Of a stretch of DNA of 64,000 nt, positions 4,589 to 62,208 are shown piece by piece; the stretch's first letter is position 1; each line of letters starts with the position of its first letter. The notes under the pieces are model-generated. The model was not told the DNA's origin and made no database searches. It saw nothing but the letters and a program-made list of their open reading frames with translations. The translations under genes were made by a program, and so were the position numbers. The stretch is from the IMG/VR virus record IMGVR_UViG_3300043688_000007; one strand, 5' to 3'. The DNA is from a virus.

Positions 4589-6592
4589 TTGCCGATTCTC
4601 CCGCTTCTGCCTATAAGCCTTCCCGGTCAGGAGCTAGTAGGTTCATCATCCACTTCCTCCGGTGCTAATGGTGCCATAGTCTCGACACTTAGTATCTCTG
4701 GCTCCGCGTCGCCAGTATCGTCTGCAAGTGGCGTTCTCGGCCTGAATGCTATAGCATCCGGCTCGTCGTCTGCTGCATCAAGTGCTAATGGCAATCTCGC
4801 CGCTAAGCTTATCATTGCCGGTTCATCCTCGGCAGTATCCGCCGCTAACGGTGCTATGGCCCTTGTCGGTATACTGGCGGGATCGTCCTCTACCACGTCG
4901 AGCGCCAGCGGTTCAGTTACAAGAGTGACTCCGCTCGCGGGGTCGGCATCATCATCAAGCTCTGGCTCCGGCGCGGTAACCATACAGACCGGTCCGCAGA
5001 CATACCCTATAACTGGAACTTCGACCGCTACATCTGCGGCCAACGGCTCGGTAACGCAGATCATCATCATATCGGCTACGTCCGTACAGCTAGTGTCGGC
5101 GGCAGGGTTCATTGTTCAGTTTATCCTGATCTCCGCGTCGTCTAGCACGCCATCCTCGGCGGTCGGAAGCTTCGCCGCTGTCACCAGCATAGTTAGCGGT
5201 ACCGCGTCGAGCGCATCATCAGCGGCTGGGACCTTCAAGCCGACTGTCCTTCTCACCAGCGGTATATCTATATCTGCATCTTGGGCGCAGGGAGGTTTCA
5301 TGGGAGCTACTACCTATGACGTCAATTCACTGACGCGGAACTATTCAGCCGGTCTAGGCGCACTCCTGCCCGGTTCTGTATACGTGCCTCCATCCTCTGG
5401 TTCATACAATGAGGTATGGGTCGAGGTGCTCAACAGCAACCTTGTCAGCATGGGGCCAGTTCAGTTCATCAGTCTGACAGCCCAGCTCTATTACAATGCT
5501 GTCGGCTCCTGGACCGTAACCGTTCCGTACAGCGACGGGCTATGGAACCTTATGATGTCCGGAGATCTCATTGTCCATATAAACTGGCGCGGACTGTTTA
5601 CATTCGGCGGCAAGTGCGAGTCGCCTGGATATAATGACTCCGTACCGGGAGCGGCTAGCGGGTCCTCCGTTGCCGGACCCTATATAACCCTCTCGGGCGC
5701 GGACTATCTCGCCCTAATCGCGAACCGGATAGCTTACCCGAGCCCTGGCGCAGCATGGAACGCCCAGACGGCCGCCGCGTCGGACCCAGTTAGCAACGTT
5801 AAGCTAGAGACGGCTATCAAGCATTACGTCACTAACAACATAGGGTCCGGTACCGTAGTGGCCAGGCGTATGACGCTGCTAGATGTAGCCGCCGACCTTG
5901 GACGCGGAGTGAACGTTAGCTACACAGTCAAGTTTGGCAGCGGAGTCAACCTCAACTTGCTCGACGTTATCCGTGCTCTCATATCGCAGGCGAATACAAC
6001 GATGGGAGTCAAGATCACTCGGAACGCATCGACGCACAGGCTCACGTTCGATGTATACATTCCGCGCGACCTGACTGGCAAGGCCTGGTTCAGCGAATCA
6101 CTAGGCAACCTCACGGCTATCAATTTTAGCATACAGGACCCGACCGTGACCGACTCGCTAGTCCAGGGCTCCGGTACCACGTTTGTGCAGAGGACCGCAT
6201 CCGGACGGACGCAGTGGAACTCAGTCGAGGCGTACAGCGATAGCTCTAGCGAGACAGATATCAACAACATCAATACTACCGCGCAGGACTCGCTGCTACA
6301 AGGGGCGGCTGGGCCGACTATGAGCCTGACTGCTATCGACATACCATTCCTTACGTACGGCCGAGACTACGGACTGGGCGACAAGGTATCCGTGGAGGTC
6401 CGGCCAGGCGTAGTGTACAGCGACATAGTTACGGGCGTTACGCTAACTGCAGATCCGTCGCAGTCGCCGGAGATAACAGTCGTGCCTACTATAGGGCAAT
6501 CATCTAACCCGACCGCTACCGACCAGACCGCAATAGGCCAGCTTACCGCGAGGATTCGAAAGCTGGAGAAACTACTATCAACATCGATGTGA
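4589..6592 (+). CDS. Minor tail protein (tail-tip, Tal-like position) with N-terminal 20-residue Ser/Gly repeats
   Basis: TTG start shortly after GAGGAGG. Residues ~15-230 carry about 10 copies of h-x-G-S-S-x3-S-S-A-S/N-G-x-h, the same repeat as in 58615..62208. The C-terminal ~430 aa are globular. Confidence 0.7.
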   Translation: MPILPLLPISLPGQELVGSSSTSSGANGAIVSTLSISGSASPVSSASGVLGLNAIASGSSSAASSANGNLAAKLIIAGSSSAVSAANGAMALVGILAGSSSTTSSASGSVTRVTPLAGSASSSSSGSGAVTIQTGPQTYPITGTSTATSAANGSVTQIIIISATSVQLVSAAGFIVQFILISASSSTPSSAVGSFAAVTSIVSGTASSASSAAGTFKPTVLLTSGISISASWAQGGFMGATTYDVNSLTRNYSAGLGALLPGSVYVPPSSGSYNEVWVEVLNSNLVSMGPVQFISLTAQLYYNAVGSWTVTVPYSDGLWNLMMSGDLIVHINWRGLFTFGGKCESPGYNDSVPGAASGSSVAGPYITLSGADYLALIANRIAYPSPGAAWNAQTAAASDPVSNVKLETAIKHYVTNNIGSGTVVARRMTLLDVAADLGRGVNVSYTVKFGSGVNLNLLDVIRALISQANTTMGVKITRNASTHRLTFDVYIPRDLTGKAWFSESLGNLTAINFSIQDPTVTDSLVQGSGTTFVQRTASGRTQWNSVEAYSDSSSETDINNINTTAQDSLLQGAAGPTMSLTAIDIPFLTYGRDYGLGDKVSVEVRPGVVYSDIVTGVTLTADPSQSPEITVVPTIGQSSNPTATDQTAIGQLTARIRKLEKLLSTSM

Positions 6593-6598
6593 GGAATC

Positions 6599-7668: not shown

Positions 7669-7677
7669 GGAGGTCAC

Positions 7678-7896: not shown

Positions 7897-7906
7897 GGAG
7901 AAGTGG

Positions 7907-16330: not shown

Positions 16331-16554
16331 CGGTAGTCGCTTGTTAGCTTAGCGATTACCTGAGCTAGAGACTGCATGTCGGTGAGGAACCGGATGATGA
16401 TGGCCTCCGCTGCCTCGTCGCCGTCGTAGGACGGAGGGATCAGTTCCGTGCACTGAATGACGAAGTCCTCGTACAGCTTGTTGTCCTCGCGCAGGGCCGC
16501 GATAGTTTTCCGCGCTAGCTCCAGCGCGTCCTCTTTGTTGCTGTCCTTAACCAT
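16327..16554 (-). CDS. Hypothetical acidic protein (75 aa)
   Basis: Start MVKDSNKEDALELARK... after GGAGGCGAG. The upstream part of the listed 167-aa ORF overlaps the methyltransferase gene and looks non-coding. Confidence 0.55.
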   Translation of the reverse strand: MVKDSNKEDALELARKTIAALREDNKLYEDFVIQCTELIPPSYDGDEAAEAIIIRFLTDMQSLAQVIAKLTSDYR

Positions 16555-17290
16555 CTCGCCTCCAGTACACTGAGTGGCCGTCGATATCGATGTATGGTTC
16601 CGTGATGTGCATCTTCTGCCGGTACTCCATGACCGCTTCCCTGCACATCGGGACATTCCAGTCGTCGATGATGCAGAAGCCGCCCGGCTGGAGCAGAGGG
16701 TAGAGCTTGTCGAGGGCGTCCATGGTCGAGACGTACAGGTCGGCGTCGAGCCGTAGCACCGCGAGCTTCTTGACTGGGCCGGGTAGGCTGTCCTTGAACC
16801 AGCCCGGTATGACTCCGACCTGATCATCAAGCAGGCCGTACAGCTCGAAGTTGTGCCTGACCTCGTCGAGCGGTACTGCTAGATGCGCCTGTTCTGGCTG
16901 AGCTATCAGTGCCCGATCGCCCTCGCTGATGCTAGTCGGCGGGAAGCCGTCGAACGAGTCAGCGAGCCAGACGGTACGGCCGAGCACGTTGTGAGCGCTT
17001 AGTACGCCACGCATGAAGATGCACGCACCTCCGCGCCAGACTCCGCACTCGATGAGGTCGCCACGAATGCGGTCTTCTATGACCTGCTCGATACACATCT
17101 GCAGGTTGTCGAGCCGCTTGAGCCCGATCATGGTGTGGGAGTACATTGGCCAGTCCCGCCCGTTCTCGCGCGTCGTCTCGCTGTAGACGCTGAGCTGGCG
17201 CCACGGGACAGGTATGGACGGGTCTTCGAACGTCATGCCGCAAACCGTGCGCTTGAGCAGTTCGAGATACCTGTCGAGGTTACCTCTCAT
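16547..17290 (-). CDS. TylF/MycF-family (macrocin-type) O-methyltransferase-like protein
   Basis: WPMYSHTMIGLKRLDNLQMCIEQVIEDRIRGDLIECGVWRGGACIFMRGVL...LRLDADLYVST matches the TylF-family pattern as I recall it. Confidence 0.75.
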   Translation of the reverse strand: MRGNLDRYLELLKRTVCGMTFEDPSIPVPWRQLSVYSETTRENGRDWPMYSHTMIGLKRLDNLQMCIEQVIEDRIRGDLIECGVWRGGACIFMRGVLSAHNVLGRTVWLADSFDGFPPTSISEGDRALIAQPEQAHLAVPLDEVRHNFELYGLLDDQVGVIPGWFKDSLPGPVKKLAVLRLDADLYVSTMDALDKLYPLLQPGGFCIIDDWNVPMCREAVMEYRQKMHITEPYIDIDGHSVYWRRDG

Positions 17291-18676: not shown

Positions 18677-19096
18677 CTATCTACATCGATTTGACTCTGC
18701 TATGGCCTTAGACATCTTAGCCCTGTACTCGGGGTCCTCCCACTTTCTCCGCAGAGCTTCAGCGGCATTTTTCTTTCGCTTGTCCTGATCCTGAGAGGCG
18801 TTCACTCTCGACATAACTGCTGACTGACTGATCCTACTTTCCGGCTTAGCCCATCTTGCCTCTCTAGCTGATGCAGCTACTTCGGCCATGTATTCGATTC
18901 TGTCGTACGCTATATGGCATCTACGACACATTGGCATATAATGGATAGGATTTGTGCCATCGGTATCATGTATCTGAGACCAGTCCCTCGCCTTGCCGAA
19001 ACACATCACGCATTCGTAATTGGACGCCGAACCCCTTGATCTGCGAAGTCTAGCGTGGTTAGCGCGATGAGTGTAGGAAGTTACTGGTCTGCTCAT
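18677..19096 (-). CDS. HNH homing-type endonuclease
   Basis: Start MSRPVTSY in ATGA overlap. YECVMCFGKARDWSQIHDTDG...MCRRCHIAYD is an HNH core. The basic C-terminal tail resembles a DNA-binding module. Confidence 0.75.
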   Translation of the reverse strand: MSRPVTSYTHRANHARLRRSRGSASNYECVMCFGKARDWSQIHDTDGTNPIHYMPMCRRCHIAYDRIEYMAEVAASAREARWAKPESRISQSAVMSRVNASQDQDKRKKNAAEALRRKWEDPEYRAKMSKAIAESNRCR

Positions 19097-19893
19097 CTTA
19101 CTCGTGCCCAACCGTCTCGTCGTAGCATGGACACGATTGCGTCTCGCGTATCGTAATAAGCAGTATCGACCCACACCTCATTTTCCCAACAGCCGAACCG
19201 TCCGGTCAATAGCATGTCCGGGTAGCAGTTACAGTTATGGCTGATCGGCTTGTGGATGGTTAGCGGCTCTAGCTCGGGCGGTGCCTCGCCCGACAGCCAT
19301 TCGGTGCACGAGTTGCCGAGTAGCCACGCCGACCGTACCCATGGATACCGATGTCCCGCATTGAAGATAGTAGTATCCTCGGGCTGGTTTGGGTACGAGT
19401 GCCCCATCGTGATCTCGACTGCCTTCGACCGGAACGTATGTCCTTGGTAGCAGAGCTTGTCGAGTGGAGCGGTGTTGATGACTAGGTCGAACTCTTGTAC
19501 CATTATGCTGATGACCTGGGGCGTAACCTCGCCCGTGACATGCGCAGCCCGCCCAGCGCCAGGCTCCATGTATAGCTCCCAGAGCCGGTCGTACGTCTCG
19601 ATCATCTTCCAGCAGTGGTAGCCCTCCTTGAGGATGTTGCCCTGGATGCTGATGTTGATGTCGCCGTACAGCTTGTAGCGGTAGTCGAGGATGGAGCCGT
19701 CGACTACGATCTGCTTGATGTAGCCGTCTGGGTGATCCTGAGTGATAGCCGGGATCGGTCGCTGCAGAACTAGTGGACCACGTTGCGGCGACTTGATGGC
19801 AGGCGAGTAGATAGTAACACCCGCGCAGAGGCCATGCGCTGCATGCGCTGCTGCTAGTCCGGCTGGTCCACAACCGATCACGGCTATCCTCAT
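19093..19893 (-). CDS. FAD/NAD(P)-binding oxidoreductase-like protein
   Basis: N-terminal Rossmann motif MRIAVIGCGPAGLAAAHAA. 266 aa, no closer family recognised. Confidence 0.6.
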   Translation of the reverse strand: MRIAVIGCGPAGLAAAHAAHGLCAGVTIYSPAIKSPQRGPLVLQRPIPAITQDHPDGYIKQIVVDGSILDYRYKLYGDINISIQGNILKEGYHCWKMIETYDRLWELYMEPGAGRAAHVTGEVTPQVISIMVQEFDLVINTAPLDKLCYQGHTFRSKAVEITMGHSYPNQPEDTTIFNAGHRYPWVRSAWLLGNSCTEWLSGEAPPELEPLTIHKPISHNCNCYPDMLLTGRFGCWENEVWVDTAYYDTRDAIVSMLRRDGWARVR

Positions 19894-32300: not shown

Positions 32301-32435
32301 TCACCCCGCGATAGCTGCCGTGACCTGACAGATGCCCCAGCCGATGATTAGGCCGCGAGTGTTAGGGCTGACAGCGAACGCTAGGACGCCAGCCCAGTAG
32401 CCGATCATGGCCCACTTCTGACATCGCCAGTCCAT
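32301..32435 (-). CDS. Small membrane protein (44 aa)
   Basis: MDWRCQKWAMIGYWAGVLAFAVSPNTRGLIIGWGICQVTAAIAG. TGATG overlap with the upstream stop. Confidence 0.45.
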   Translation of the reverse strand: MDWRCQKWAMIGYWAGVLAFAVSPNTRGLIIGWGICQVTAAIAG

Positions 32436-33628
32436 CAGAACCTCGCACTTGCTATCTGGTGGTCGGTCATCTGCGTCTGGCGAACGTACTGGGCGAGGGC
32501 GTGCTGGAGAATCGACATGATGTCTTCGCACACACCGTAGTTCGTGTTGGGGATGGTGATGTGGACGGTAGCGAGCCCGGCCTGGTCTATGGTGACGCCG
32601 CCTTCGCCGGTGATGGCGATGGACTGCATGCCCATCTCTCGGGCGCGCTGGAGCGCTGCTATAATGTTGCGGCTCTCGCCGCTGACGGAGAACACGACGA
32701 GCACGTCATCCTTGTGGCCGAACTGTTCGAGCTGCCAACTGAAGATGCCGTTGTATCCGATGTCGTTTGCGAGCGCGGTAGTGAGAGCGTGGTTAGCGCA
32801 GAGGCTATGAACGTTGCGGTAGAGCGTGTCGACCGCGGCCATGTGCTTGGCGTGGTCGGTCGCCATGTGATCCGCGATGGCGGCGGCTCCACCGTTGCCG
32901 GCGGCGAAGACATAGCTGCCGTCGCTGTACGCCTTGTACAGGATGTCGGCGGCGTGCTCGACGAGCTTCTTGTCGACACGGCTAAGCGAGAGCGTAACCT
33001 CATCCGAGTAGTGGAGTAGGTAGCTGAGGATGCCTGAGTAGTTGTTGATCGGGAACTCGCTTGTGGACACGCCTGTGATCCTCTCGATGATATGAGTTGC
33101 GGCTTCGGCTAGGCTGTGGAAGTGGGGGACGACGGGGTGTAGCGCTGGGGGAGGTTCCGCGCCGAGGTATGCGCAACGCATGCCGCATCGGCGGGCCATC
33201 TCGACGTCAGTGATGCGGTCGCCTACCACCCAGCTGTCGTGCTGTTCTAGGTGCAGGTCCCTGATTGCGGCCAGGGCCATGCCCGGATTCGGTTTGTGGT
33301 CGTAGCTCTCCCGGGCGAATTCAGGATCGGAGCCTTCGGGGTGATGCGGGCTGAAGTAGAACGCATCAACGTGCGCTCCGTGTCTGGCTAGTTCTTGGTT
33401 GATGTAGCGGTTGACGGCATAGACCTCGTGGAGCGTGTAGAAGCCCCGCGCAACGCCACCTTGATTCGTGACGATAGCGACGGGGATGCCAGCCTGGTTG
33501 AAGCGACGGATCGCATCGATGGCGCCCGGTATGAATTGGACGCGCTCGATCCTGCCGACGTAGTGATAGTCCTCGACAATGGTGCCATCACGGTCGAGCA
33601 GGACGCCAGGCTTGCTACGAGTCGACAT
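32435..33628 (-). CDS. Bifunctional GmhB-like HAD phosphatase / GmhA-like SIS sedoheptulose-7-phosphate isomerase fusion
   Basis: N half: LLDRDGTIVED...VTNQGGVARG...HKPNPGM...VGDRITD (HAD-IIIA, heptose-1,7-bisphosphate phosphatase pattern). C half: VFAAGNGGAAAIADHMATD...VLVVFSVSGESRNIIAALQRAREMGMQSIAITG (SIS/GmhA pattern). Confidence 0.85.
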   Translation of the reverse strand: MSTRSKPGVLLDRDGTIVEDYHYVGRIERVQFIPGAIDAIRRFNQAGIPVAIVTNQGGVARGFYTLHEVYAVNRYINQELARHGAHVDAFYFSPHHPEGSDPEFARESYDHKPNPGMALAAIRDLHLEQHDSWVVGDRITDVEMARRCGMRCAYLGAEPPPALHPVVPHFHSLAEAATHIIERITGVSTSEFPINNYSGILSYLLHYSDEVTLSLSRVDKKLVEHAADILYKAYSDGSYVFAAGNGGAAAIADHMATDHAKHMAAVDTLYRNVHSLCANHALTTALANDIGYNGIFSWQLEQFGHKDDVLVVFSVSGESRNIIAALQRAREMGMQSIAITGEGGVTIDQAGLATVHITIPNTNYGVCEDIMSILQHALAQYVRQTQMTDHQIASARF

Positions 33629-33992
33629 TCACGTACTCCTGTATCTCTGCGATCGGGCCGTGGCTGGTACGGTCGCCGATGTAGATTGGCTCGTCGTTGT
33701 CGATGGCCTTGTCTATTGCTTCGATGGTTGTCTGGTCTGCGACCGTGACTAGGTATATCTTCATTCGGGTGGACCGCCTTGGCTGCCAGGTGGTTCGACC
33801 GGGTAGTTGGGGACTAGGTGCAGGTACCATAGAGCTATATACACGTCCTCCGATACGTGCCGCTTGATCCATAGGTCCAGCTTCATTGGGTACAACGGGA
33901 TGCCTCCTGACTTCGCGTCGTACGTACATGGCCATGAGCATGATGGCGGCGAGTGCGATGCTGGTAACGATGATTGGCCAGTCAGGTTGCAT
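33615..33992 (-). CDS. Membrane protein; possibly two fused or adjacent products
   Basis: N-terminal TM WPIIVTSIALAAIMLMAMYV. An in-frame internal start MKIYLVTVADQ... could give a separate 49-aa product. Confidence 0.45.
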   Translation of the reverse strand: MQPDWPIIVTSIALAAIMLMAMYVRREVRRHPVVPNEAGPMDQAARIGGRVYSSMVPAPSPQLPGRTTWQPRRSTRMKIYLVTVADQTTIEAIDKAIDNDEPIYIGDRTSHGPIAEIQEYVNVDS

Positions 33993-49740: not shown

Positions 49741-50430
49741 TCACACATACTCCCTCAGCTGGAGCCCGAGATGGAACGTATACAGCGGAGGGATGGCTTG
49801 CGACATTTCATCGGTCGACATCCAGTCGATGCCCATCGCGTGGGCCCATATCTCGCGCTGCGTCTGGCCCTTGAAGTGTGAGCCATCACCGCGGCCATAC
49901 ACGTACACGATGCCGCGTCGGACCTCACTGCCCCGTCCGTTCGGCCGCTGGATGTAGCGGAGGTCCAGGTCTTGCCACGTATGCCAGCAAGGCACTCCCT
50001 CCAGCTCGCAGTTGCTCTCGAACAGCCTGTGCCGTTGGACGCGGAGCCCGAGCCCACTCCCGCAAATCTGCACCGGCTTGATCATCGGAGCGCCGGGCAC
50101 GTTCTCAATGATGTACGGCAGCCCAGTCTCCTCAAACACCCAGCGCGTGTATTCAACCAGCTTCGGGTGCGCCTTCGTGGTGAGCGTCTTCGAGATGCTG
50201 TAGCCCTTGCACGGAGGGCTCCCAGCGATGGCGTCGAAGTTGCGCCCGATCCGCGCAATCTGCTTGTCGCTGAGCTTCGTGATGTCATACTGGTAGAATC
50301 GCTTGGGCCAAGGGAAGCTGGGCTGCGGCTCGATGTCGGACCCCCACACCTCGAATCCTGCCATATGGTAGCCCATCGAGGTGCCACCTGCCTTACAGCA
50401 CCAGTCGAGCAATTTAAGCCGTCGCCTCAT
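49741..50430 (-). CDS. Compact DNA (cytosine-5)-methyltransferase
   Basis: Motif I-like CCKAGGTSMGY, motif IV GSPPCKGYS, motif VI IIENVPG, motif VIII RVQRHRLF, motif X-like MSQAIPP. Only 229 aa, so the target-recognition domain is very short. Confidence 0.8.
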   Translation of the reverse strand: MRRRLKLLDWCCKAGGTSMGYHMAGFEVWGSDIEPQPSFPWPKRFYQYDITKLSDKQIARIGRNFDAIAGSPPCKGYSISKTLTTKAHPKLVEYTRWVFEETGLPYIIENVPGAPMIKPVQICGSGLGLRVQRHRLFESNCELEGVPCWHTWQDLDLRYIQRPNGRGSEVRRGIVYVYGRGDGSHFKGQTQREIWAHAMGIDWMSTDEMSQAIPPLYTFHLGLQLREYV

Positions 50431-50470: not shown

Positions 50471-50755
50471 ATGCCACCTTCACAAGCAGCAGGCCCGGGG
50501 CCATCTCTGCCTCAGATCAACGCCATGATCGCCGCCGCGCGGAGCTACATCCATTTCACTACGCCACCTGCGAGCGGACACAATGATCACCAGGTCCTAT
50601 TCTGGGCCGTCGGCAGTGACAATGCCACGGTGGTTCCGTATATCGCCAGCACTGATGATGCCAAGACGGTCATCCCGGCCAATTCCGTCTCTGCCGACTA
50701 CATCATCCTCAACCCATACAGCGAGTGCGAAATCTGCGTTAGGCCACCACAATGA
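50471..50755 (+). CDS. Hypothetical protein (94 aa)
   Basis: ATG 6 nt after the TATACT box. ATGA overlap with the next gene. Confidence 0.5.
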   Translation: MPPSQAAGPGPSLPQINAMIAAARSYIHFTTPPASGHNDHQVLFWAVGSDNATVVPYIASTDDAKTVIPANSVSADYIILNPYSECEICVRPPQ

Positions 50756-51333
50756 CGCCATGGCTCGATATAGCCAATAACGCTATCGACGCATACCGAG
50801 CTCAGCAGCAGGCTCCCGAGCTAGCTGTGCTACTCGCGTTCATAGACTCTACAGAGCCCAGGTCCGTTCTCGAAATTGGATCAGCAGACGGAGGGCTCGC
50901 CTGGGCCATCATGCAGATTGCGTCGGTATCAATGCTCGTAACGATCGACAAGACGGTAACTAGAGGGCATCAGCAAGTATGCGATCTTTTCCCCGCTCGG
51001 ATTCTGGCTATCTATGGAGACTCCACGGACGAGAAGATCATCCACCATGCAATGGCAGAGGGCGATTACGATGTCGTGATCATCGACGGAGGTCATGATT
51101 GGAGGACGGCATCATCAGACTGGAATAGCTACGCATCAATGGCCAAGTCAGGAGGGCTGGTAGTAGTCCATGACACGCAAGGGTATCACAACTTCAGGGA
51201 CTTTGATGTTCCTACGATGTGGGCGACTGTCAGGAAGCGAGCTAAGTCAGTGGACCTGGTATCAATGCCGGGGGTCGAAGCAGGCACCGGCATTGTATGG
51301 GCTGGTGAAGGCGAATGGTGGGATGTTCTATGA
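50752..51333 (+). CDS. Class I SAM-dependent methyltransferase (O-methyltransferase-like)
   Basis: SVLEIGSADGGLAWAI...VTIDK...IYGDSTD...YDVVIIDGGHDW pattern. Confidence 0.75.
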   Translation: MTPWLDIANNAIDAYRAQQQAPELAVLLAFIDSTEPRSVLEIGSADGGLAWAIMQIASVSMLVTIDKTVTRGHQQVCDLFPARILAIYGDSTDEKIIHHAMAEGDYDVVIIDGGHDWRTASSDWNSYASMAKSGGLVVVHDTQGYHNFRDFDVPTMWATVRKRAKSVDLVSMPGVEAGTGIVWAGEGEWWDVL

Positions 51334-51941
51334 GCAAGCATGAAGGCGTCATGATCGGCTACGTCAGGCCATTGATGGTTCATGGCGAATTCATGGAGGC
51401 TCTCTTCGTTGAGGCCAACCGAGCTAAGGCTAAGGTCCACGGCATGTGGTCCGAACCATACGTGGACGCCGCGCGGAACAGGGTTGTGGAGTTCTTCATG
51501 GCCAGCGACTGCGAATGGTTCCTCTCGGTCGATACCGACATCATCCTGCCTGACCTAGTGGTTCAGAGGCTAATGGCGCGGAGGCAGTCTCTTGTAGGCG
51601 CGCTCATCTATGTAGATGCAGACCCCATTTTCCCGCAGATATACAGCAAGATAGCTGACTTCGGATTCGGTGGGATGGGCCAGTACGTTGTCAATGAGGC
51701 GTGGAACCCCGGCGAGCTGGTCAAGGCTGACGCGACCGGCGCGGGGTGTCTGCTTATCCATCGCGAGGTATTCGACAAGATACCGGAGGGTTCGCAGTAT
51801 CGCTGGTTCGAGCACGAACGTGAAGGCCAGCAGATGTTTGGCGAAGACTTCACGTTCTGCCGAAGAGCGCGCCAGGTCGGCTTCCAGCTATACATAGACA
51901 CGGCGGTACATGCGAAGCATATCAAGACCAGGTATATCTAG
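51330..51941 (+). CDS. Family-2-like glycosyltransferase
   Basis: Start MSKHEG in ATGA overlap. FLSVDTDII (DxD) and GEDFTFCRRA (ED) motifs. Confidence 0.7.
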   Translation: MSKHEGVMIGYVRPLMVHGEFMEALFVEANRAKAKVHGMWSEPYVDAARNRVVEFFMASDCEWFLSVDTDIILPDLVVQRLMARRQSLVGALIYVDADPIFPQIYSKIADFGFGGMGQYVVNEAWNPGELVKADATGAGCLLIHREVFDKIPEGSQYRWFEHEREGQQMFGEDFTFCRRARQVGFQLYIDTAVHAKHIKTRYI

Positions 51942-52008: not shown

Positions 52009-52108
52009 ACCCGTGTGCTGGTCCAGAAAACAGTGGTCCCGTTGCCCCCAAGCTTCAGACCGACTCTTGCCCTGGGCCAGCACACGGAGAGGAAGCCGGA
52101 GTAATTCC

Positions 52109-52627
52109 ATGCCAGCGCACACCAAACCTCCTGCCCGCCGTACGGGGGCAGGAACTGGACGAGGCGACGACCCACGCTTTATCAGGGTCAGTACCGGTGT
52201 TGCGTCTGACAAGAGCTTCCCAATACCCACTGCGGACCCGAAGTGGCACCCGAAGGCCAGGAGCTGGTACAACTCGCTCAGGCGTTCTGGCCACTCGCAG
52301 TGGTTTGAGCCGTCGGACTGGGCAACAGCTGTCGCTGCGGCTGACGCCTATAATGTGTTCCTACGGTCGTACAATGCTAGTATTCTAGCCCAGTTCGTTC
52401 GGCTCAGTGAGCGTCTTGGAGCGACACTCACTGATCGCAAGCGCAGCCGTATTGAGCTGGAGGAGCCCGTGCTGGAAGATGAGGATGAAAAAGCAGCTGA
52501 CGAGGCAGTCCAAGGATGGCAAGGCCGTCTGCATTCTGTCCAGTTAGCTATTACCGACCAGGTTGGCGAAACAGCCTGGCGTAAGGTGGTAGACGGGCAT
52601 GTCCAGCATTACAGCAGCAATTGTTAG
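52109..52627 (+). CDS. Terminase small subunit (actinophage type)
   Basis: Internal ATG after GGAGAGGAAG. KWHPKARSWYNSLRRSGHSQWFEPSDWATAV...LGATLTDRKRSRIELE pattern. Position before terL. Confidence 0.6.
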   Translation: MPAHTKPPARRTGAGTGRGDDPRFIRVSTGVASDKSFPIPTADPKWHPKARSWYNSLRRSGHSQWFEPSDWATAVAAADAYNVFLRSYNASILAQFVRLSERLGATLTDRKRSRIELEEPVLEDEDEKAADEAVQGWQGRLHSVQLAITDQVGETAWRKVVDGHVQHYSSNC

Positions 52628-58614: not shown

Positions 58615-61600
58615 ATGACTAGCCCAGTAGTCACTTTCTTGAATAATGCGTCCTCGAAGGTTGCGAATACCGGCATTACTACCAATGCCGCCTCTAGGAC
58701 GTGGAGTGTTGGCGACTTCCTGGTTGCGCACGTTGCCATGGACCCTACTTCTGGGACTGTGTCCTTTGGGGCAGTGTCTAATTTTGGTGCGTGGGCCACA
58801 AGCATTGACATAGCTCAGGGATCGGGCACGTCTGGGGTACGCAGTATCGTGTCTTACTGCCAGTGCACGACTGGGTTTACTGGCACCGTGTCCGTTACCG
58901 CTACGATACCGTCAACGACTGCTAAGTCAATGAATTTGTTCGTCGCTACTGGTTGCGACACCACGACTCCAGTACGTGGTACGCAACAAATAGCTAGCGC
59001 TACTAATGCTGGCATCTCGCAAACAGTGACCGCTGGGGCTAACATTGACGCTACTGCTATGGCGTTTGGTGGTTGTGAGGGTCCAGGCGGGTCATCTAAT
59101 ATTGTCGGGACCGGTGGCTGGCCTGTTACTGGACCCCAGTCGGCGTCGACTGCCGGCACCACGGGCTCGGGCTCGGCGTCCAATATATCCAATGCGTATC
59201 AAGGCGAGTCGAATACTAATGTCGCGGCTGGCACCTCTACCGGAACGATGCAGGCCTCCATAAGTGGCGCAGCTAATGCAGTAATTCTAGTCATATTCGC
59301 CTCACCTTCTGGTAGTCCCGTTACTTATCCAGTAGCAGGATCTAGCACTTCTGTTTCCTATGCGAATGGTACCGTTACGCAGCAGATGACATTGTCCGGC
59401 TCATCTGACACTACCGGAAGTGATTCTGCTAGCGGAACATTGTCGCTAAATGCACTGGTATCTGGTACATCTGACACTACAGGAATTGATTCTGCTAGTG
59501 GTACAGTAAGTATTGTTTCGCCGAGTGCCAATGTCACCCAGGTAGGCACTCCCGCTGCAGTTACGATTCAATCGGGAAGCAACACCGGCAGCGTTACTGG
59601 CGTCTGGGGTACGGGACAGAACCGGACGGCTGGTAACTTGCTAGTCGCTAACGTTACCGCGTATGGCACTACTACTTGCGGTGTTATATCGACTCCCTCC
59701 GGATGGACGCAGCAGTATCAGATTGCCTCGGCGAACGCGCACGCTCAGGTAGCACAGTTTACTAGAGTTGCAACGGGAGGGGACGCGGCGCCAACCTTTA
59801 CCGCGACCATGACTGGCACGGCGGCCAACGAGCGGATGTCATGTTCATTGTACGAACTAACTGGAGTAGGGTCAACTCCAGTATTCACGAATGGCAACGC
59901 TACGTCAGCCGCTACTCCGATGACGGTTACTTCCGGCGCAAATGTCCCTGCGTCCGGGTACTATGGATTGTCAGTCTGGCTTGCGTCCAATACGAGTGTT
60001 ACTACCACAACGATCGGAACTGGGACTGGCTGGACCAACGTATCGGATACCGGAGCCACCTCCGCGCGGACTCACTCGCATGAGGACATTATATCCAACC
60101 CCAGCACGGGTGCTGTCCTTTCCGAGCAGTCCTCGATGACAGGTACGGTCTCGGACTTCACTGGCGGCATGCTGGTCATCGCCCCGTCTGGTGGCACTAC
60201 ATATTCATTGTCTGGATCGTCACCTGCCTCATCTAGCGCCAATGGGACGCTTGGCCTTATCGGAGCTATTGCCGGATCTGCTCCGTCCTCTAGCGCAGCG
60301 AACGGAACCGTAACACTTTCTATTCTGATCAATGCCTGGTCTTCTACGGCTAGCGCGGGCAGCGGTGCTATAGTTTCTGCAATGTCGCTATCCGGCTCGT
60401 CTGCGGCCGCTAGCTCGGCTAGCGGTACTCTCGGAACACTTGGTGCTCTAGCCGGTTCATCTACCACTACTTCATCAGCTAGTGGTGCTGTTACCTTCCA
60501 GCCGATTGTCGGCTCATCTTCTACTGTCTCGTCCGCAGCAGGCACAGTAGTTCTGATCGGCGTGGTGGCGGGGAGTTCGGTTTCCGCGAGTACAGCATCC
60601 GGTGCTGTATCTCGGTTCTCTCCGTTGACTGGGCAATCCACCACCACGCCCCAGGCTTCAGGTTCTATAGTATTGGTCGGGCTGGTGTCTGGATCCAGCT
60701 CGGCCACGGCCACCGCGTCAGGCGCTTTGGGGGCAATATCACCCACAAGCGGAACCGCTGTTGCTACTCCCGGCCCAGCCACTGGCGCGGTGGCCATCCA
60801 AATGGTTGTTGCTGGGTCCTCGATTAGCGTTTCGAGCGCGAGCGGGGTACTATCGGCTACTGGCGCGGTGACGGGCTCGGCCATCGCAGCAACCTCAGCC
60901 GCTGGGGCCGTAGTCCAGACTCTGTCCCTGTCTGGTCAGTCCGTCACCGCGTCTCACGGGGACGGCGTATTTGGCTCCGCCCTCATTTCTGGTTCGGCAG
61001 TGAGCCAGACGTCGGCCAGCGGCGTAGTCACGCAAAGCCTGATTGTGGCGGGTTCAGCGACTAGTGTATCGAGTGCTAGTGGCTCGCTGGGCGCTGTCTC
61101 GCCGCTGGCCGGCTCATCATCAACCGTAAGCGCGGGGTTCGGAACAGTAACCGCCACGCTTGTTATCAATGGTTCATCAACCACAGTCTCCACCGCGTCG
61201 GGTGCCCTCGGCAGGCTTTCGCCCGTTGCTGGTTCGTCAACCGCAATCAGCTCTGCCACCGGCGCGGTGGTAATACAGGCTGGGGCCGTAACATACCCGC
61301 TTTCTGGTACGGCCCTGGCCCAAAGCGTCGCGAATGGATCCGTGTCCCTCTTCGCGGCGTTGACTGGCACATCAAGCAACGTGTCGGCAGCGAACGGCAC
61401 GTTGAGTCTGAAGGGCGTGCTAGTCGGCAGTGCGGCGTCGGTCAGCGGTGCAACGGGCTCCATCAGCCTGACCGGCGTCGTTGCTGGTAACGCCACCTCG
61501 GTCAGCACTGCTGCGGGCTCCATTGTGCTGGCCGGGGTGGTTACCGGATCTTCATTTACGCAGAGCCAGGGCTCAGGCTGGCTGGCCGGTGGGCCGATCT

Positions 61601-62208
61601 CCGGTACATCAAGTACAGCGTCTGTGGCGTCGGGCGCGATATCAGCCCGGCTAGTCCTAGCGGGTAGCAGCGCCAGCGTTAGCCAGGGCTCTGGTAGCCT
61701 GGCTATTGTTGGTCCGGCACCGCTAATCATATCTGGATTCTCGGCAACCGTTACGACCGCAAGCGGAGCGGTCGTAACGGTTATGGTGCTCTCGGGTAGC
61801 TCGCCTAACCTCTCGTCCGCGTCGGGTAGCCTCTCGTCCCACGGAGCCCTGACGGGGACCTCCTACGCTTACCCAGCGGGCTTGGGGACGGTCGTCCTGG
61901 TCGGCGTCGTCTCGGGGCGCGCGGATAATGTGGGCAAGGCGTACGGTAACCTGTCGCTGCTCGCCCGGCTATCCGGGTCGTCCGCGACACCGAGCCGGGG
62001 CGACGGCTGGATAGGGTTGCCCATCGTCGTAGGCTCACTACCCGACGAGGTAACTGCCATCGTATGGGTCAGTAACGAACTTGGCGCGGAGCTGAGCGTA
62101 AATGTCCTGTCGGCCGCGGTCATTGCGGATAGCGCGTCTGCGTCGATTGAGGTCGATTCCGCTGGGGCTACTATCGAAACTAACGAAATCCGTGCAACGG
62201 TAACGTAG
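58615..62208 (+). CDS. Giant (1197 aa) Ser/Thr/Gly/Ala/Val-rich repeat protein: two related N-terminal globular domains + about 30 copies of a 20-residue repeat
   Basis: Domains contain GDFLVAHVAMD... and GNLLVANVTAYG... From aa ~545 the repeats follow h-h-x-G-S-S-x3-S-x-A-x-G-x-h-x-h-x-x. The ATG has no good RBS. An in-frame GTG with a strong RBS lies 18 codons upstream, but a TAG intervenes. Confidence 0.8.
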   Translation: MTSPVVTFLNNASSKVANTGITTNAASRTWSVGDFLVAHVAMDPTSGTVSFGAVSNFGAWATSIDIAQGSGTSGVRSIVSYCQCTTGFTGTVSVTATIPSTTAKSMNLFVATGCDTTTPVRGTQQIASATNAGISQTVTAGANIDATAMAFGGCEGPGGSSNIVGTGGWPVTGPQSASTAGTTGSGSASNISNAYQGESNTNVAAGTSTGTMQASISGAANAVILVIFASPSGSPVTYPVAGSSTSVSYANGTVTQQMTLSGSSDTTGSDSASGTLSLNALVSGTSDTTGIDSASGTVSIVSPSANVTQVGTPAAVTIQSGSNTGSVTGVWGTGQNRTAGNLLVANVTAYGTTTCGVISTPSGWTQQYQIASANAHAQVAQFTRVATGGDAAPTFTATMTGTAANERMSCSLYELTGVGSTPVFTNGNATSAATPMTVTSGANVPASGYYGLSVWLASNTSVTTTTIGTGTGWTNVSDTGATSARTHSHEDIISNPSTGAVLSEQSSMTGTVSDFTGGMLVIAPSGGTTYSLSGSSPASSSANGTLGLIGAIAGSAPSSSAANGTVTLSILINAWSSTASAGSGAIVSAMSLSGSSAAASSASGTLGTLGALAGSSTTTSSASGAVTFQPIVGSSSTVSSAAGTVVLIGVVAGSSVSASTASGAVSRFSPLTGQSTTTPQASGSIVLVGLVSGSSSATATASGALGAISPTSGTAVATPGPATGAVAIQMVVAGSSISVSSASGVLSATGAVTGSAIAATSAAGAVVQTLSLSGQSVTASHGDGVFGSALISGSAVSQTSASGVVTQSLIVAGSATSVSSASGSLGAVSPLAGSSSTVSAGFGTVTATLVINGSSTTVSTASGALGRLSPVAGSSTAISSATGAVVIQAGAVTYPLSGTALAQSVANGSVSLFAALTGTSSNVSAANGTLSLKGVLVGSAASVSGATGSISLTGVVAGNATSVSTAAGSIVLAGVVTGSSFTQSQGSGWLAGGPISGTSSTASVASGAISARLVLAGSSASVSQGSGSLAIVGPAPLIISGFSATVTTASGAVVTVMVLSGSSPNLSSASGSLSSHGALTGTSYAYPAGLGTVVLVGVVSGRADNVGKAYGNLSLLARLSGSSATPSRGDGWIGLPIVVGSLPDEVTAIVWVSNELGAELSVNVLSAAVIADSASASIEVDSAGATIETNEIRATVT

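What the first reader, a model, noticed from the sequence alone, without database searches (positions are those of the whole stretch)
32435..33628. Partial heptose pathway (GmhB-GmhA fusion) plus glycosyltransferase and O-methyltransferase-like genes: dispersed phage sugar-modification set
One ORF fuses a HAD-IIIA phosphatase (DRDGT, HKPNPGM, GDRITD; GmhB pattern) to a SIS isomerase (GNGGAAAIADH, VFSVSGESRN; GmhA pattern). In the established NDP-heptose route these are steps 1 and 3. The route runs GmhA, then the HldE/HddA kinase, then GmhB, then a nucleotidyltransferase. No kinase or nucleotidyltransferase is recognisable in this window.

Elsewhere the phage encodes a GT2-like glycosyltransferase (51330..51941), an adjacent class I methyltransferase (50752..51333) and a TylF-family sugar-O-methyltransferase-like protein (16547..17290). 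It also encodes two structural proteins with hundreds of Ser/Thr residues in regular repeats (4589..6592, 58615..62208).

Hypothesis: the phage makes, or diverts host, heptose precursors to O-glycosylate and methylate virion proteins. Alternatively it modifies DNA or the host envelope. Virion glycosylation has been reported for some mycobacteriophages. A heptose-based route with a GmhB-GmhA fusion would, to my knowledge, be unusual.
Basis: partly seen in the sequence, partly recalled or inferred. Interest (0 to 1): 0.7.

Follow-up and report, generated by a model that had tools for sequence, protein, structure and literature searches.

The report
Phage-borne GmhB–GmhA heptose enzyme fusion
An actinobacterial phage carries a two-enzyme fusion, captured from a common host sugar-pathway gene cluster, that encodes two of the four steps needed to make activated heptose; it is a new variant of a known kind of phage "auxiliary metabolic gene", not a new pathway, although the phage copies have changed several normally invariant substrate-binding residues.

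Summary
ORF 32435..33628 (-) encodes a 397-aa protein with an N-terminal GmhB-type HAD-IIIA phosphatase and a C-terminal GmhA-type SIS isomerase, and both catalytic cores are intact. No heptose kinase or nucleotidyltransferase exists anywhere in the ~69.6-kb phage genome.

The architecture is not unusual. In about 70 of the 80 best Actinomycetota genome loci the same pair heads a conserved cassette: gmhB-gmhA, GT4, epimerase/dehydratase, HddC-like nucleotidyltransferase, HddA-like GHMP kinase. About 65 of these are fused and about 12 are split, overlapping genes.

The phage copies form one clade of about 74 sequence clusters. All 9 contexts checked are phage. In 8 the gene sits at the same place in the replication module, and none has a cassette partner.

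The phage clade carries a fixed 10-site signature (HSYHAAVVIM versus cellular GCFRCSASVH). It replaces residues conserved in every solved GmhA or GmhB that was matched.

The GT-like gene is a true GT-A fold enzyme, overlaps a CmcI-like methyltransferase and lies beside TerS. TylF is confirmed. All three are lineage core genes, but nothing links them functionally to the fusion.

Partial heptose routes in phages are already annotated (Caulobacter phage Cr30; virome AMG lists).

Verdict: new variant of a known kind, moderate interest.

The parts
32435..33628 (-). Gene for the 397-aa GmhB-GmhA fusion protein (phage-clade type)
   Evidence: ORF. Pfam and NCBIfam. PDB matches. AlphaFold model with pLDDT 89 and pTM 0.57, i.e. 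two well-folded domains with an undefined mutual orientation.
33170..33613 (-). HAD-IIIA phosphatase domain (residues ~6-153), GmhB-like. Motif I D12-x-D14-G-T, motif II T54-N-Q, motif III K112, motif IV G-D137...D141.
   Evidence: Alignment to E. coli GmhB 3L8E. The motif residues are invariant in the phage and cellular clades. Phage-specific replacements are G22H, C93S, F104Y and R111H.
33014..33169 (-). Inter-domain linker (residues ~154-205). The join corresponds to the stop/start overlap of separate gmhB and gmhA genes in a sister cellular group.
   Evidence: Split overlapping ORFs in L082 and L089 end at '...FILERIT' and restart in another frame. The linker residues S172, A177, E182, R183, T185 and G186 are conserved in the phage clade.
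32468..33013 (-). SIS isomerase domain (residues ~206-387), GmhA-like. GNGG244-247, H254, D258, S314-V-S-G-E-S319, E368, D369, H376.
   Evidence: Alignment to Burkholderia and Colwellia GmhA. Conservation. Phage-specific replacements are C243A, S248A, S315V and H371M.
33615..33992 (-). 125-aa ORF with a hydrophobic N-terminal segment. Its 3' end overlaps the fusion start by 14 nt (probable translational coupling).
   Evidence: An independent gene call on an identical contig (L210 9637-10014). A homologue precedes the fusion in L012 (53% identity).
32301..32435 (-). 44-aa hydrophobic ORF whose ATG shares a base with the fusion's stop codon
   Evidence: internal Met of ORF 32301..32531. Independent gene call L210 11194-11328. 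A small ORF overlaps the fusion's stop in the same way in L211.
51330..51941 (+). GT-A fold glycosyltransferase with invariant D68-x-D70. A candidate partner in sugar modification, but no link to the fusion is shown.
   Evidence: No Pfam hit. phrog_34859 'glycosyltransferase' at 1.5e-12. JGI names its relatives 'GT2 family'. Model pLDDT 90.7. Foldseek matches Mnn9 3zf8, STIV A197 2c0n, ppGalNAc-T2 and collagen GTs, and phage GT-A proteins with TM up to 0.83.
50752..51333 (+). Class I SAM methyltransferase of the CmcI / rhamnosyl-O-methyltransferase type. It overlaps the GT start and lies upstream of TerS (52013..52627).
   Evidence: Pfam Methyltransf_24 at 34.8 bits and RMNT_CmcI at 32.4 bits, both above their cut-offs.
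16547..17290 (-). TylF-family O-methyltransferase, between the ThyX-like gene and Pol III alpha. Syntenic across the lineage.
   Evidence: Pfam TylF at 288 bits. Same position in L175-L179. In the unrelated viral contig L202 a TylF homologue lies 1.6 kb from a homologue of the GT.

Best explanation
The gene is a phage auxiliary metabolic gene: a catalytically intact, bifunctional sugar-phosphate enzyme. It was captured once from the first gene (or overlapping gene pair) of a widespread actinobacterial GDP-heptose-type glycan cassette, and a lineage of ~65-70-kb actinophages has kept it since.

**Shown.**
- Its ancestry, domain identity and intact catalytic residues.
- Its orphan status: the phage has no kinase, nucleotidyltransferase, epimerase or GT4.
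- Its fixed position in the leftward replication/early gene block.
- Long-term purifying selection.

**Inferred mechanism.** During infection the SIS domain isomerises sedoheptulose-7-phosphate, taken from the pentose-phosphate pool, into D-glycero-D-manno-heptose-7-phosphate. A host HddA-like GHMP kinase adds the 1-phosphate. The HAD domain removes the 7-phosphate. A host HddC-like nucleotidyltransferase activates the sugar. The phage thus supplies the entry step and the irreversible step of a host pathway, and raises or maintains NDP-heptose supply while host gene expression declines.

**Not resolved.** Where the heptose ends up: host envelope glycan, or phage-directed glycosylation through the phage GT-A and methyltransferases. 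The phage-specific substitutions at substrate-contact positions indicate that kinetics or specificity have been retuned relative to the cellular enzyme.
For: **Domain identity and active sites.**. 98 positions are at least 90% conserved with the same residue in the phage and cellular clades. They include all four HAD motifs and, in the SIS domain, GNGG, H254, D258, S316, S319, E368 and H376.

**Cellular homologues.** At 40-57% identity they sit directly beside an NTP_transferase and a GHMP kinase, with an epimerase/dehydratase, a GT4, Wzy-like genes and flippase genes.

**Phage copies.** They are monophyletic, with no cassette-type sequence inside the clade. All 9 contexts checked are phage; 8 of them are syntenic, lying between Prim-Pol and the SNF2/DUF3987/PD-(D/E)XK genes.

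**Whole genome.** It lacks the other pathway genes.

**Precedent.** gmhA is treated as an established phage AMG (PMC9238414; bioRxiv 2024.05.16.594516). gmhB and hldE appear in virome AMG lists. Cr30 has an annotated cluster with a heptose kinase and GmhA.
Against: - The host is unknown, so it is not shown that the host has the kinase and nucleotidyltransferase.
- If the host has the cassette it already has its own GmhB-GmhA, so the benefit of a second copy is only an argument by analogy with other AMGs.
- The phage clade has replaced residues that are conserved in every solved GmhA or GmhB matched here: R to H before the motif III Lys, the cap Cys to Ser, Ser to Ala in GNGGS, Thr/Ser to Val in the phosphate loop, and His to Met. 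In M. tuberculosis GmhA the equivalent T122A mutation costs about 14.5-fold in catalytic efficiency (PMC7705670). The canonical reactions may therefore be weakened or changed.
- Scores are below the NCBIfam equivalog cut-offs for both halves.
- No experiment of any kind.
Confidence: 0.55

Rival explanations
1. **Retooled, kinase-independent enzyme.** In the phage clade the phosphatase no longer needs a 1-phosphate on its substrate, and the isomerase phosphate site is altered. The fusion alone would then run a two-step route: ketose-phosphate to aldose-phosphate to free sugar (for example sedoheptulose-7-P to heptose-7-P to free heptose), or it would act on a different sugar phosphate. This would explain why no kinase or nucleotidyltransferase was ever co-acquired.
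For: - Clean dichotomy at 10 sites, HSYHAAVVIM in phage versus GCFRCSASVH in cells, each fixed within its clade.
- The sites include R111H (R in E. coli, M. loti and 4PNH GmhB), C93S (cap loop), G22H (loop after motif I), S248A, S315V (phosphate loop; Thr is 'fully conserved' in GmhA per PMC7705670) and H371M (His 'fully conserved').
- The nearest outgroup, P0104, is also phage-borne and has an intermediate signature.
- 9 of 9 phage contexts lack the kinase and nucleotidyltransferase.
Against: - The catalytic core and most ligand-contact residues are unchanged.
- The substitutions are individually mild, mostly the loss of a single hydroxyl or of a charge.
- The precise role of GmhB R110 could not be verified from papers I could access.
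- No benefit of free heptose to a phage is known.
- Signature differences could simply reflect descent from an unsampled cellular lineage.
Confidence: 0.2
2. **The reader's hypothesis.** The fusion, the GT-A enzyme, the CmcI-like methyltransferase and TylF form one dispersed pathway that O-glycosylates virion proteins with methylated heptose. The candidate acceptors are the Ser/Thr-rich repeat proteins 4589..6592 and 58615..62208. The system would be analogous to mycobacteriophage virion glycosylation.
For: - The GT is real, with a GT-A fold. Its top structural neighbours include a GDP-sugar-dependent GT62 (Mnn9) and protein O-glycosyltransferases.
- The GT overlaps the methyltransferase, and both lie at the head of the structural operon beside TerS.
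The 70.2-kb genome also has TylF.
- TylF and a GT homologue are neighbours in the unrelated contig L202.
- Cluster O and F mycobacteriophages carry GT plus O-methyltransferase sets, and Che8 and Rita are reported to be glycosylated (PMC4351075; PMC11256854).
- In Cr30, GmhA sits next to a GT2.
Against: - Co-occurrence in the core genome of one lineage says nothing about functional coupling.
- The three loci are 15-18 kb apart, in different modules and on different strands.
- The donor sugar of the GT is unknown.
- The capsid and tail tube proteins lack Ser/Thr-rich C-terminal tails.
- The repeat ORFs are unverified as virion proteins, and JGI gene calls disagree with them.
- TylF occurs in about 27 other viral contigs without the fusion.
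Confidence: 0.15
3. **Replication or DNA-related role.** Either the SIS half acts as a DiaA-like replication-initiation factor, or the enzyme feeds a sugar hypermodification of phage DNA. The reason to consider this is that the gene lies in the replication and nucleotide-metabolism block (Prim-Pol, DUF3987, Endo VII, ThyX-like, Pol III alpha).
For: - Position in the replication module in 8 syntenic phage contexts.
- DiaA is a GmhA paralogue and is detectably similar (55.8 bits; 1e-13).
Against: - GmhA models score much higher than DiaA (93.5 versus 55.8 bits; 1e-19 versus 1e-13).
- The metal/catalytic residues and the phosphate loop are retained, as are the HAD catalytic residues. A binding-only role does not explain that.
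- No DNA glycosyltransferase or base-hydroxymethylase signature was found. The ThyX-like protein matches ordinary phage thymidylate synthase PHROGs.
- In P0104's phage the gene lies beside TerS instead.
Confidence: 0.04
4. **Passenger gene.** It is a non-functional or neutral remnant of host DNA picked up by illegitimate recombination.
For: Only one gene of a five-gene cassette was taken, and it cannot complete the pathway alone.
Against: - It is kept at the same locus in phages whose copies have diverged to about 50% identity.
- The frame is full-length, 98 positions are conserved with the cellular clade, and all catalytic residues are intact.
Confidence: 0.03

Closest known systems
[quoted passage not shown] Specifically the uncharacterised Actinomycetota cassette gmhB-gmhA / GT4 / epimerase-dehydratase / hddC / hddA found here.
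   Same: Same two domains in the same order, at 40-57% identity, with an identical catalytic core. The phage gene clearly derives from this gene or gene pair.
   Different: The phage has only this one gene of the five. The phage clade carries a fixed 10-site signature that includes substrate-contact residues. The whole actinobacterial family, phage and cellular alike, has Asp and Glu where E. coli, Burkholderia and M. tuberculosis GmhA have the catalytic Glu and Gln. It also lacks the full CxH...CxC zinc cap of E. coli GmhB.
Phage gmhA (phosphoheptose isomerase) auxiliary metabolic genes of cyanophages, pelagiphages and Caulobacter phage Cr30
   Same: A heptose-pathway enzyme of cellular origin carried by a lytic phage without the complete pathway. 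In Cr30 it sits beside a GT2 and an epimerase.
   Different: Those are stand-alone GmhA proteins (Cr30 adds a heptose-7-P kinase) in phages of Gram-negative hosts, where heptose goes into LPS. This one is a GmhB-GmhA fusion in an actinophage, placed in the replication module. It has no full-length counterpart in BFVD or among isolated phages in INPHARED.
E. coli HldE (RfaE), the bifunctional heptose-7-P kinase / heptose-1-P adenylyltransferase
   Same: It also fuses two non-consecutive steps of the same four-step pathway (steps 2 and 4). The GmhB-GmhA fusion is the complementary pair (steps 3 and 1). This rests on established pathway knowledge, not on a test here.
   Different: Unrelated folds and the ADP- rather than the GDP-heptose branch. 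HldE has been characterised biochemically, while I found no characterisation of the GmhB-GmhA fusion.
Mycobacteriophage virion glycosylation gene sets (Che8 and Rita in cluster F1; Corndog in cluster O: O-methyltransferase plus glycosyltransferases among the structural genes)
   Same: An actinophage with a GT-A glycosyltransferase coupled to an O-methyltransferase at the structural operon. A Che8 GT is a weak structural match (rank 43).
   Different: No sugar-precursor enzymes are reported in those sets in the papers read here. This phage's capsid and tail tube lack Ser/Thr-rich C-terminal tails. Glycosylation is untested here.

Membership tests
GmhB (HAD-IIIA D-glycero-D-manno-heptose-1,7-bisphosphate 7-phosphatase) | HAD motifs I-IV: DxDGT nucleophile and acid, T/S in motif II, Lys in motif III, (G)D...D in motif IV | tested here: met
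   D12, D14, T16, T54, K112, D137 and D141 align to E. coli GmhB 3L8E. They are invariant in the family.
GmhB (HAD-IIIA D-glycero-D-manno-heptose-1,7-bisphosphate 7-phosphatase) | Score above the curated family cut-offs | tested here: not met
   Equivalog PRK08942 scores 124 against a cut-off of 178, and TIGR00213 scores 115.3 against 149.6. The broader domain models pass: TIGR01656 at 118.2 against 84.15, and HAD-SF-IIIA at 99.7 against 44.6.
GmhB (HAD-IIIA D-glycero-D-manno-heptose-1,7-bisphosphate 7-phosphatase) | Zinc-binding cap with CxH ... CxC motifs (described as unique to GmhB and HisB-N, PMC9798254) | tested here: not met
   E. coli C92-x-H94 ... C107-x-C109 aligns to S93-P-H95 ... 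S108-Y-D110 here. The cellular actinobacterial clade keeps only the first Cys.
GmhB (HAD-IIIA D-glycero-D-manno-heptose-1,7-bisphosphate 7-phosphatase) | Arg immediately before the motif III Lys (R110 in E. coli; as I recall it contacts the substrate, unverified) | tested here: not met
   His111 in 97% of the phage clade. Arg in 98% of the cellular clade and in the three GmhB structures aligned (3L8E/2GMW, 2O2X, 4PNH).
GmhB (HAD-IIIA D-glycero-D-manno-heptose-1,7-bisphosphate 7-phosphatase) | Genomic association with a heptose kinase and a nucleotidyltransferase | tested here: not met
   Absent from the whole phage genome and from 9 of 9 phage contexts. Present next to the cellular homologues.
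GmhB (HAD-IIIA D-glycero-D-manno-heptose-1,7-bisphosphate 7-phosphatase) | 7-phosphatase activity on heptose-1,7-bisphosphate | not testable with these tools
   Needs an enzyme assay.
GmhA (SIS-fold sedoheptulose-7-phosphate isomerase) | SIS domain with best similarity to GmhA rather than to other SIS enzymes | tested here: met
   SIS_2 at 72.2 bits (cut-off 27). GmhA models score 76-94 bits, against DiaA 55.8 and HxlB 27.4. The 13 best PDB hits for this half are all GmhA.
GmhA (SIS-fold sedoheptulose-7-phosphate isomerase) | Score above the curated equivalog cut-offs | tested here: not met
   PRK13936 scores 93.5 against 276, and TIGR00441 scores 87.2 against 209.45.
GmhA (SIS-fold sedoheptulose-7-phosphate isomerase) | Catalytic and metal quartet His / Glu / Gln / His (Burkholderia H64, E68, Q175, H183) | tested here: inconclusive
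   The quartet is H254 / D258 / E368 / H376 here. Both His residues are kept; Glu is Asp and Gln is Glu. The same variant is fixed in the cellular cassette-linked clade, so it is probably compatible with activity.
GmhA (SIS-fold sedoheptulose-7-phosphate isomerase) | C7-phosphate binding loop S-T-S-G-x-S with 'fully conserved' Thr, and 'fully conserved' His three residues after the catalytic Gln (PMC7705670) | tested here: not met
   The loop is S314-V315-S316-G-E-S319, and the His position is M371. Val and Met are fixed in the phage clade, while the cellular clade has Ser and His.
DiaA (DnaA initiator-associating SIS protein) | Best match to DiaA models and loss of the isomerase catalytic residues | tested here: not met
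   55.8 bits against a cut-off of 352, lower than every GmhA model. The catalytic positions are retained.
HisB-N histidinol-phosphate phosphatase | Best match to the HisB-N model, short zinc cap, histidine-biosynthesis context | tested here: not met
   TIGR01261 scores 50.8 against 140. PDB 2FPR at 5e-11 against GmhB at 1e-32. There is no histidine-biosynthesis context in either phage or cellular loci.
Phage auxiliary metabolic gene (AMG) | A metabolic gene of cellular ancestry inside a bona fide phage genome, flanked by phage genes and under purifying selection | tested here: met
   The genome has TerS, TerL, portal, capsid, tape measure, Pol III alpha and Prim-Pol. Cellular ancestry. Conservation.
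Actinophage virion glycosylation system (Che8 / Corndog type) | Glycosyltransferase(s) and an O-methyltransferase encoded with the structural genes | tested here: met
   The GT-A enzyme 51330..51941 overlaps the CmcI-like methyltransferase 50752..51333, directly upstream of TerS.
Actinophage virion glycosylation system (Che8 / Corndog type) | Ser/Thr-rich acceptor tails on the capsid or tail tube subunits (feature recalled from Freeman et al. 2023, which could not be read here) | tested here: not met
   The capsid C-terminus is E/R/Q-rich and the tail tube has no such tail. Two other ORFs are S/T-rich.
Actinophage virion glycosylation system (Che8 / Corndog type) | Glycans demonstrated on virion proteins | not testable with these tools
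   Needs glycan staining or mass spectrometry.

The most novel reading that the evidence does not exclude
After its capture by phages, the GmhB-GmhA fusion was re-engineered by a fixed set of active-site substitutions: R to H before the motif III Lys, changes in the cap and flap loops, and loss of two hydroxyls and a conserved His in the isomerase pocket. The result would be a self-sufficient two-step enzyme that makes a product other than the canonical heptose-1-phosphate, for example free heptose or another aldose derived from a pentose-phosphate-pathway intermediate. That would explain why, across at least 9 phage contexts and two insertion sites, no kinase or nucleotidyltransferase ever accompanies it. 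The product could serve a phage-specific purpose such as virion glycan synthesis through the phage GT-A and methyltransferases, or manipulation of host metabolism or surface.
Probability: 0.15. Interest if true: 0.65.

Novelty: new variant of a known kind. Interest (0 to 1): 0.38.

Why it matters
If the canonical reading holds, heptose-pathway auxiliary metabolic genes extend from marine and Gram-negative phages to soil actinophages. It also points to an uncharacterised but very common actinobacterial heptose-glycan cassette as a likely target of phage manipulation, possibly a receptor or envelope polymer.

The clean phage-versus-cell signature at otherwise invariant GmhA and GmhB residues gives a small, directly testable enzymology question: what do R-to-H, T/S-to-V and H-to-M do to specificity? 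It is also a natural case for studying how an enzyme is retuned after moving from a complete operon into a virus.

It does not by itself reveal a new pathway, and it does not establish virion or DNA glycosylation.

Tried and rejected
- **Close DNA relatives among isolated phages:** none. The best "phage" protein hit, MT835644, carries the full cellular cassette and is probably a misfiled bacterial contig.
- **Hidden kinase or nucleotidyltransferase:** tblastn, and profile HMMs built from 75-76 cellular HddA and HddC sequences run with the --max setting, found nothing in the window ORFs. Pfam or PHROGs scans of about 40 ORFs found nothing. The precomputed Pfam hits for the remainder, and for the 5.6 kb outside the window, showed none.
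- **Viral-collection scan with the DUF3987 neighbour,** meant to find relatives lacking the fusion: no confirmed hits. I therefore could not test presence/absence polymorphism.
- **Metagenome scan:** it returned mostly cellular cassette loci and only one new phage context, L095.
- **Role of GmhB R110 and the cap residues in the literature:** the primary papers (PMC2844806, PMC2844805) and the virion glycosylation paper (PMC10527164) are not held, and other papers do not discuss these residues.
- **Mapping the substitutions onto the model:** coordinates are not exposed.
- **Promoter/terminator scan around the gene:** nothing above chance. No tRNAs.
- **Independent check of the Ser/Thr-repeat ORFs:** the related contigs are 100% identical to the window there, so they are uninformative.
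- **Readings rejected:** DiaA-like, histidinol phosphatase, and passenger gene. See the rival explanations and membership test.


Full report
**1. The observation.** The minus-strand ORF 32435..33628 is open, starts with ATG and encodes 397 aa. Its codon-position GC (0.63/0.42/0.78) matches the other genes of the window.
- Pfam finds HAD-family domains over residues ~9-154 and a SIS_2 domain over 206-341.
- NCBIfam ranks GmhB (PRK08942, 124 bits) and GmhA (PRK13936, 93.5 bits) first for the two halves. Both are below the equivalog cut-offs. DiaA (55.8), HisB (57.5) and other SIS or HAD families score far lower.
- Against solved structures, the N-terminal half matches E. coli GmhB (3L8E, 1e-32) and the C-terminal half matches thirteen GmhA entries (best 5LTZ, 1e-19). 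These come ahead of DiaA (1e-13) and HisB-N (5e-11).
- The identical protein occurs on 14 contigs from several samples, so the fusion is not an assembly artefact.

**2. What genome this is.** The window is a circular permutation of a ~69.6-kb tailed-phage genome. The 5.6 kb not in the window encodes the major capsid protein, connectors, tail terminator, tail tube and the N-terminus of the tape measure.
- Structural and packaging genes (TerS, TerL, portal) run on the plus strand from ~52 kb.
- A long minus-strand block from 9 to 34.6 kb holds Pol III alpha, TylF, a ThyX-like protein, AAA_24, a PD-(D/E)XK nuclease, DUF3987, Endo VII and the fusion.
- A plus-strand block starting at 35.4 kb begins with a Prim-Pol.
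- Pol III alpha is closest (46%) to cluster D mycobacteriophages, and TerL (50%) to Corynebacterium phages. No isolated phage is similar at the DNA level.
- No integrase or tRNA was found.

It is an uncultured, probably lytic actinophage.

**3. No kinase or nucleotidyltransferase.**
- tblastn with the cellular partner proteins, and profile HMMs built from 75-76 HddC- and HddA-like sequences, found nothing in any window ORF of 40 aa or more. The best hit has E = 0.004 on a 51-aa stretch.
- Pfam or PHROGs scans of about 40 ORFs, and the precomputed Pfam hits for the remainder, show none.
- The missing 5.6 kb is structural.

**4. Where the gene comes from.** A database search returned more than 120 full-length proteins with the same architecture.

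On large cellular contigs and in Actinomycetota genomes, the same gene at 40-47% identity is the first gene of a strikingly conserved cassette: gmhB-gmhA, then GT4 glycosyltransferase, then a 370-aa NAD-dependent epimerase/dehydratase, then a ~233-aa NTP_transferase, then a ~330-aa GHMP kinase. The genera include Nocardioides, Knoellia, Pedococcus, Intrasporangium, Terrabacter, Amycolatopsis, Thermocrispum, Actinophytocola, Kribbella and Acidimicrobiia. The cassette is embedded among Wzy-like, flippase and other GT genes.

By established pathway knowledge this is the GDP-heptose (HddA/HddC) branch of heptose activation, possibly leading to a 6-deoxyheptose.

In a sister cellular group (L082-L093 and many metagenome contigs), gmhB and gmhA are two overlapping ORFs in different frames at the same position. 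Fused and split forms therefore interconvert. The architecture is common and is already named as bifunctional by JGI's pipeline. I found no biochemical characterisation of it.

**5. The phage copies are one clade.** In neighbour-joining trees every sequence known to come from a phage context falls in one clade of about 74 cluster representatives, with no cassette-type sequence inside it.

I checked nine contexts across the depth of this clade and its immediate outgroups, and all are phage:
- Eight are syntenic, lying between the Prim-Pol block and the SNF2/DUF3987/PD-(D/E)XK block: the window, L004, L012, L013, L095, L211, L212 and L213.
- The nearest outgroup, P0104, lies beside a terminase small-subunit gene on a short contig.

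None has a kinase, nucleotidyltransferase, epimerase or GT4. The best "phage" hit in the isolate/GenBank collection, MT835644, carries the whole cellular cassette and is probably bacterial. BFVD holds no two-domain viral counterpart.

**6. Is it an active enzyme?** 98 alignment positions are at least 90% conserved, with the same residue, in both the phage and cellular clades.
- In the HAD domain these include motifs I-IV: D12, D14, T16, N55, Q56, K112, D137 and D141.
- In the SIS domain they include GNGG, H254, D258, S316, S319, E368, D369 and H376.
- Relative to Burkholderia GmhA, the metal/catalytic quartet His/Glu/Gln/His is His/Asp/Glu/His. This variant is shared with the cassette-linked cellular clade, so it is presumably functional.
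- The AlphaFold model is confident for each domain (pLDDT 89) and gives no fixed inter-domain geometry (pTM 0.57).

Conservation down to ~50% identity within phages excludes a decaying passenger gene.

**7. A phage-specific signature.** Ten positions are fixed differently in the two clades: 22, 93, 104, 111, 243, 248, 312, 315, 359 and 371. They read HSYHAAVVIM in phages and GCFRCSASVH in cells, with almost no exceptions. P0104 is intermediate, with RSYHCAAVIQ.

Several of these residues are otherwise invariant:
- R before the motif III Lys is present in the three GmhB structures aligned. It is His in phages.
- The first Cys of the cap loop is present in the three GmhB structures aligned. It is Ser in phages.
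- The Ser of GNGGS is Ala in phages.
- The Thr (Ser in the cellular clade) of the C7-phosphate loop is Val in phages.
- A His three residues after the catalytic Gln/Glu is Met in phages.

The M. tuberculosis GmhA study calls the Thr and this His "fully conserved" among orthologues, assigns the loop to C7-phosphate binding, and measures a ~14.5-fold loss of catalytic efficiency for T122A (PMC7705670).

I could not verify the exact role of GmhB R110 from accessible papers. My recollection that it contacts the substrate is unverified.

The pattern argues that the phage enzyme was retuned after capture. Whether that changes only kinetics or also specificity cannot be decided here.

**8. The other "sugar" genes.**
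- TylF (16547..17290) is a strong family member (288 bits). It keeps its place between the ThyX-like gene and Pol III alpha in related phage contigs. TylF homologues also occur in ~27 unrelated viral contigs without the fusion.
- The 193-aa protein at 50752..51333 passes the Methyltransf_24 and RMNT_CmcI thresholds.
- The 203-aa protein at 51330..51941 has no Pfam or PDB sequence hit. With a 27-sequence alignment it folds confidently (pLDDT 90.7, pTM 0.89) into a GT-A fold. Its best matches are yeast Mnn9 with GDP/Mn, STIV A197, ppGalNAc-transferases and collagen glycosyltransferases, plus many phage GT-A proteins. D68-x-D70 is invariant.
- The methyltransferase and GT genes overlap and sit directly upstream of TerS.
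One of them demonstrably also carries TylF.

That is co-inheritance, not evidence of a joint pathway.

The capsid and tail tube proteins have no Ser/Thr-rich C-terminal tail. The two Ser/Thr-rich repeat ORFs (S+T 26% and 32%) are open frames, but independent gene calls on identical contigs prefer short opposite-strand ORFs there.

**9. Mechanism.** The best-supported reading (0.55) is an auxiliary metabolic gene. The phage supplies the entry step (S7P isomerase) and the irreversible step (7-phosphatase) of the host's NDP-heptose route, and relies on a host HddA-like kinase and HddC-like nucleotidyltransferase.
- **Shown:** ancestry, intact catalytic machinery, orphan status, synteny and purifying selection.
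- **Inferred:** the substrates, the dependence on host enzymes, and the benefit.
- **Open:** the destination of the sugar, whether host envelope polymer or phage GT-A plus methyltransferases.

Rivals:
- a retooled, kinase-independent isomerase-phosphatase couple (0.2);
- a replication or DNA-modification role (0.04);
- a passenger gene (0.03).

**10. Comparison with what is known, and novelty.**
- gmhA is listed among "well-characterized" phage AMGs (PMC9238414) and is reported in cyanophages.
- gmhB and hldE appear in virome AMG tables.
- Cultured Caulobacter phage Cr30 has an annotated epimerase, GT2, heptose-7-P kinase and GmhA cluster.
- GT plus O-methyltransferase sets and virion glycosylation are known in mycobacteriophages.

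Three things are new here: the fused GmhB-GmhA form in phages, its stable residence in the replication module of a soil actinophage lineage, and the fixed active-site signature.

I rate it a new variant of a known kind, interest about 0.38. The most novel reading not excluded, a re-engineered self-sufficient enzyme making a non-canonical product, has a probability of about 0.15 and would merit about 0.65.

Noticed in passing
window 48708-49390: A dense array of tandem repeats in a non-coding gap: a 57-bp unit x2.6, a 40-bp unit x3.2 (95% match), and the 20-bp unit GTGTAGTCGACCCTAGTCGA x9.6. It lies between the small-gene block and the C5-cytosine-methylase-like ORF 49741..50430. It could be iterons of an origin or an operator array.
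   Followed up: no
window 4589-6592 and 58615-62208: Two ORFs with ~20-aa Ser/Gly/Ala/Thr-rich repeats (SGSSxxxSSASGxL-like). In the first, the repeats are fused in frame to a Sipho_Gp37-like tail domain. JGI gene calls on 100%-identical contigs instead call short opposite-strand ORFs across the repeats, so the true gene models are uncertain.
   Followed up: partly
window 32301-32435 and 33615-33992: The fusion gene is overlapped at both ends by small ORFs with hydrophobic segments: a 125-aa ORF upstream (14-nt overlap) and a 44-aa ORF downstream (1-nt overlap with the stop codon). This suggests translational coupling with possible membrane peptides.
   Followed up: partly
L094 (GenBank MT835644.1, 'Bacteriophage sp.', unverified, human faeces): This record in the phage collection carries the complete cellular cassette (gmhB-gmhA, GT4, epimerase, nucleotidyltransferase, GHMP kinase). 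It is probably a bacterial contig filed as phage.
   Followed up: partly
L014-L093 (Actinomycetota genome loci): A very conserved five-gene cassette (gmhB-gmhA, GT4, epimerase/dehydratase, HddC-like, HddA-like) is present across many actinobacterial genera, and I found no characterisation of it. In one subgroup gmhB and gmhA are split into overlapping ORFs (L082-L093). A few Pedococcus/Phycicoccus loci (L026, L028, L030, L034, L062, L076) keep the fusion, GT4 and epimerase but show no kinase or nucleotidyltransferase within 10 kb.
   Followed up: partly
L202 (IMGVR_UViG_3300012359_000002, 75 kb), ~6001-8300: In an unrelated viral contig, a TylF homologue is followed 1.6 kb downstream by a distant homologue (23% identity) of the window's GT-A protein. 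This hints at a recurrent TylF-GT pairing in viruses.
   Followed up: no
L216 (Logan SRR28061162 contig, 2.4 kb): P0104, the nearest outgroup of the phage clade, has an intermediate residue signature. It sits immediately downstream of a terminase small-subunit gene, a second and different phage insertion site for the fusion.
   Followed up: partly
window 49741-50430: A 229-aa ORF matches only the N-terminal ~110 positions of the C-5 cytosine DNA methylase model. It may be a split or truncated methylase, as described for cluster O mycobacteriophages.
   Followed up: no
window 17700-18665 and 19093-19893: The ThyX-like protein has a ~70-aa N-terminal extension before the region that matches phage thymidylate-synthase families (from residue ~69 in PHROGs, ~138 in Pfam Thy1). 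Two genes downstream is a conserved 266-aa protein (phrog_8720, function unknown) with a weak Rossmann / Pyr_redox-like N-terminus.
   Followed up: no
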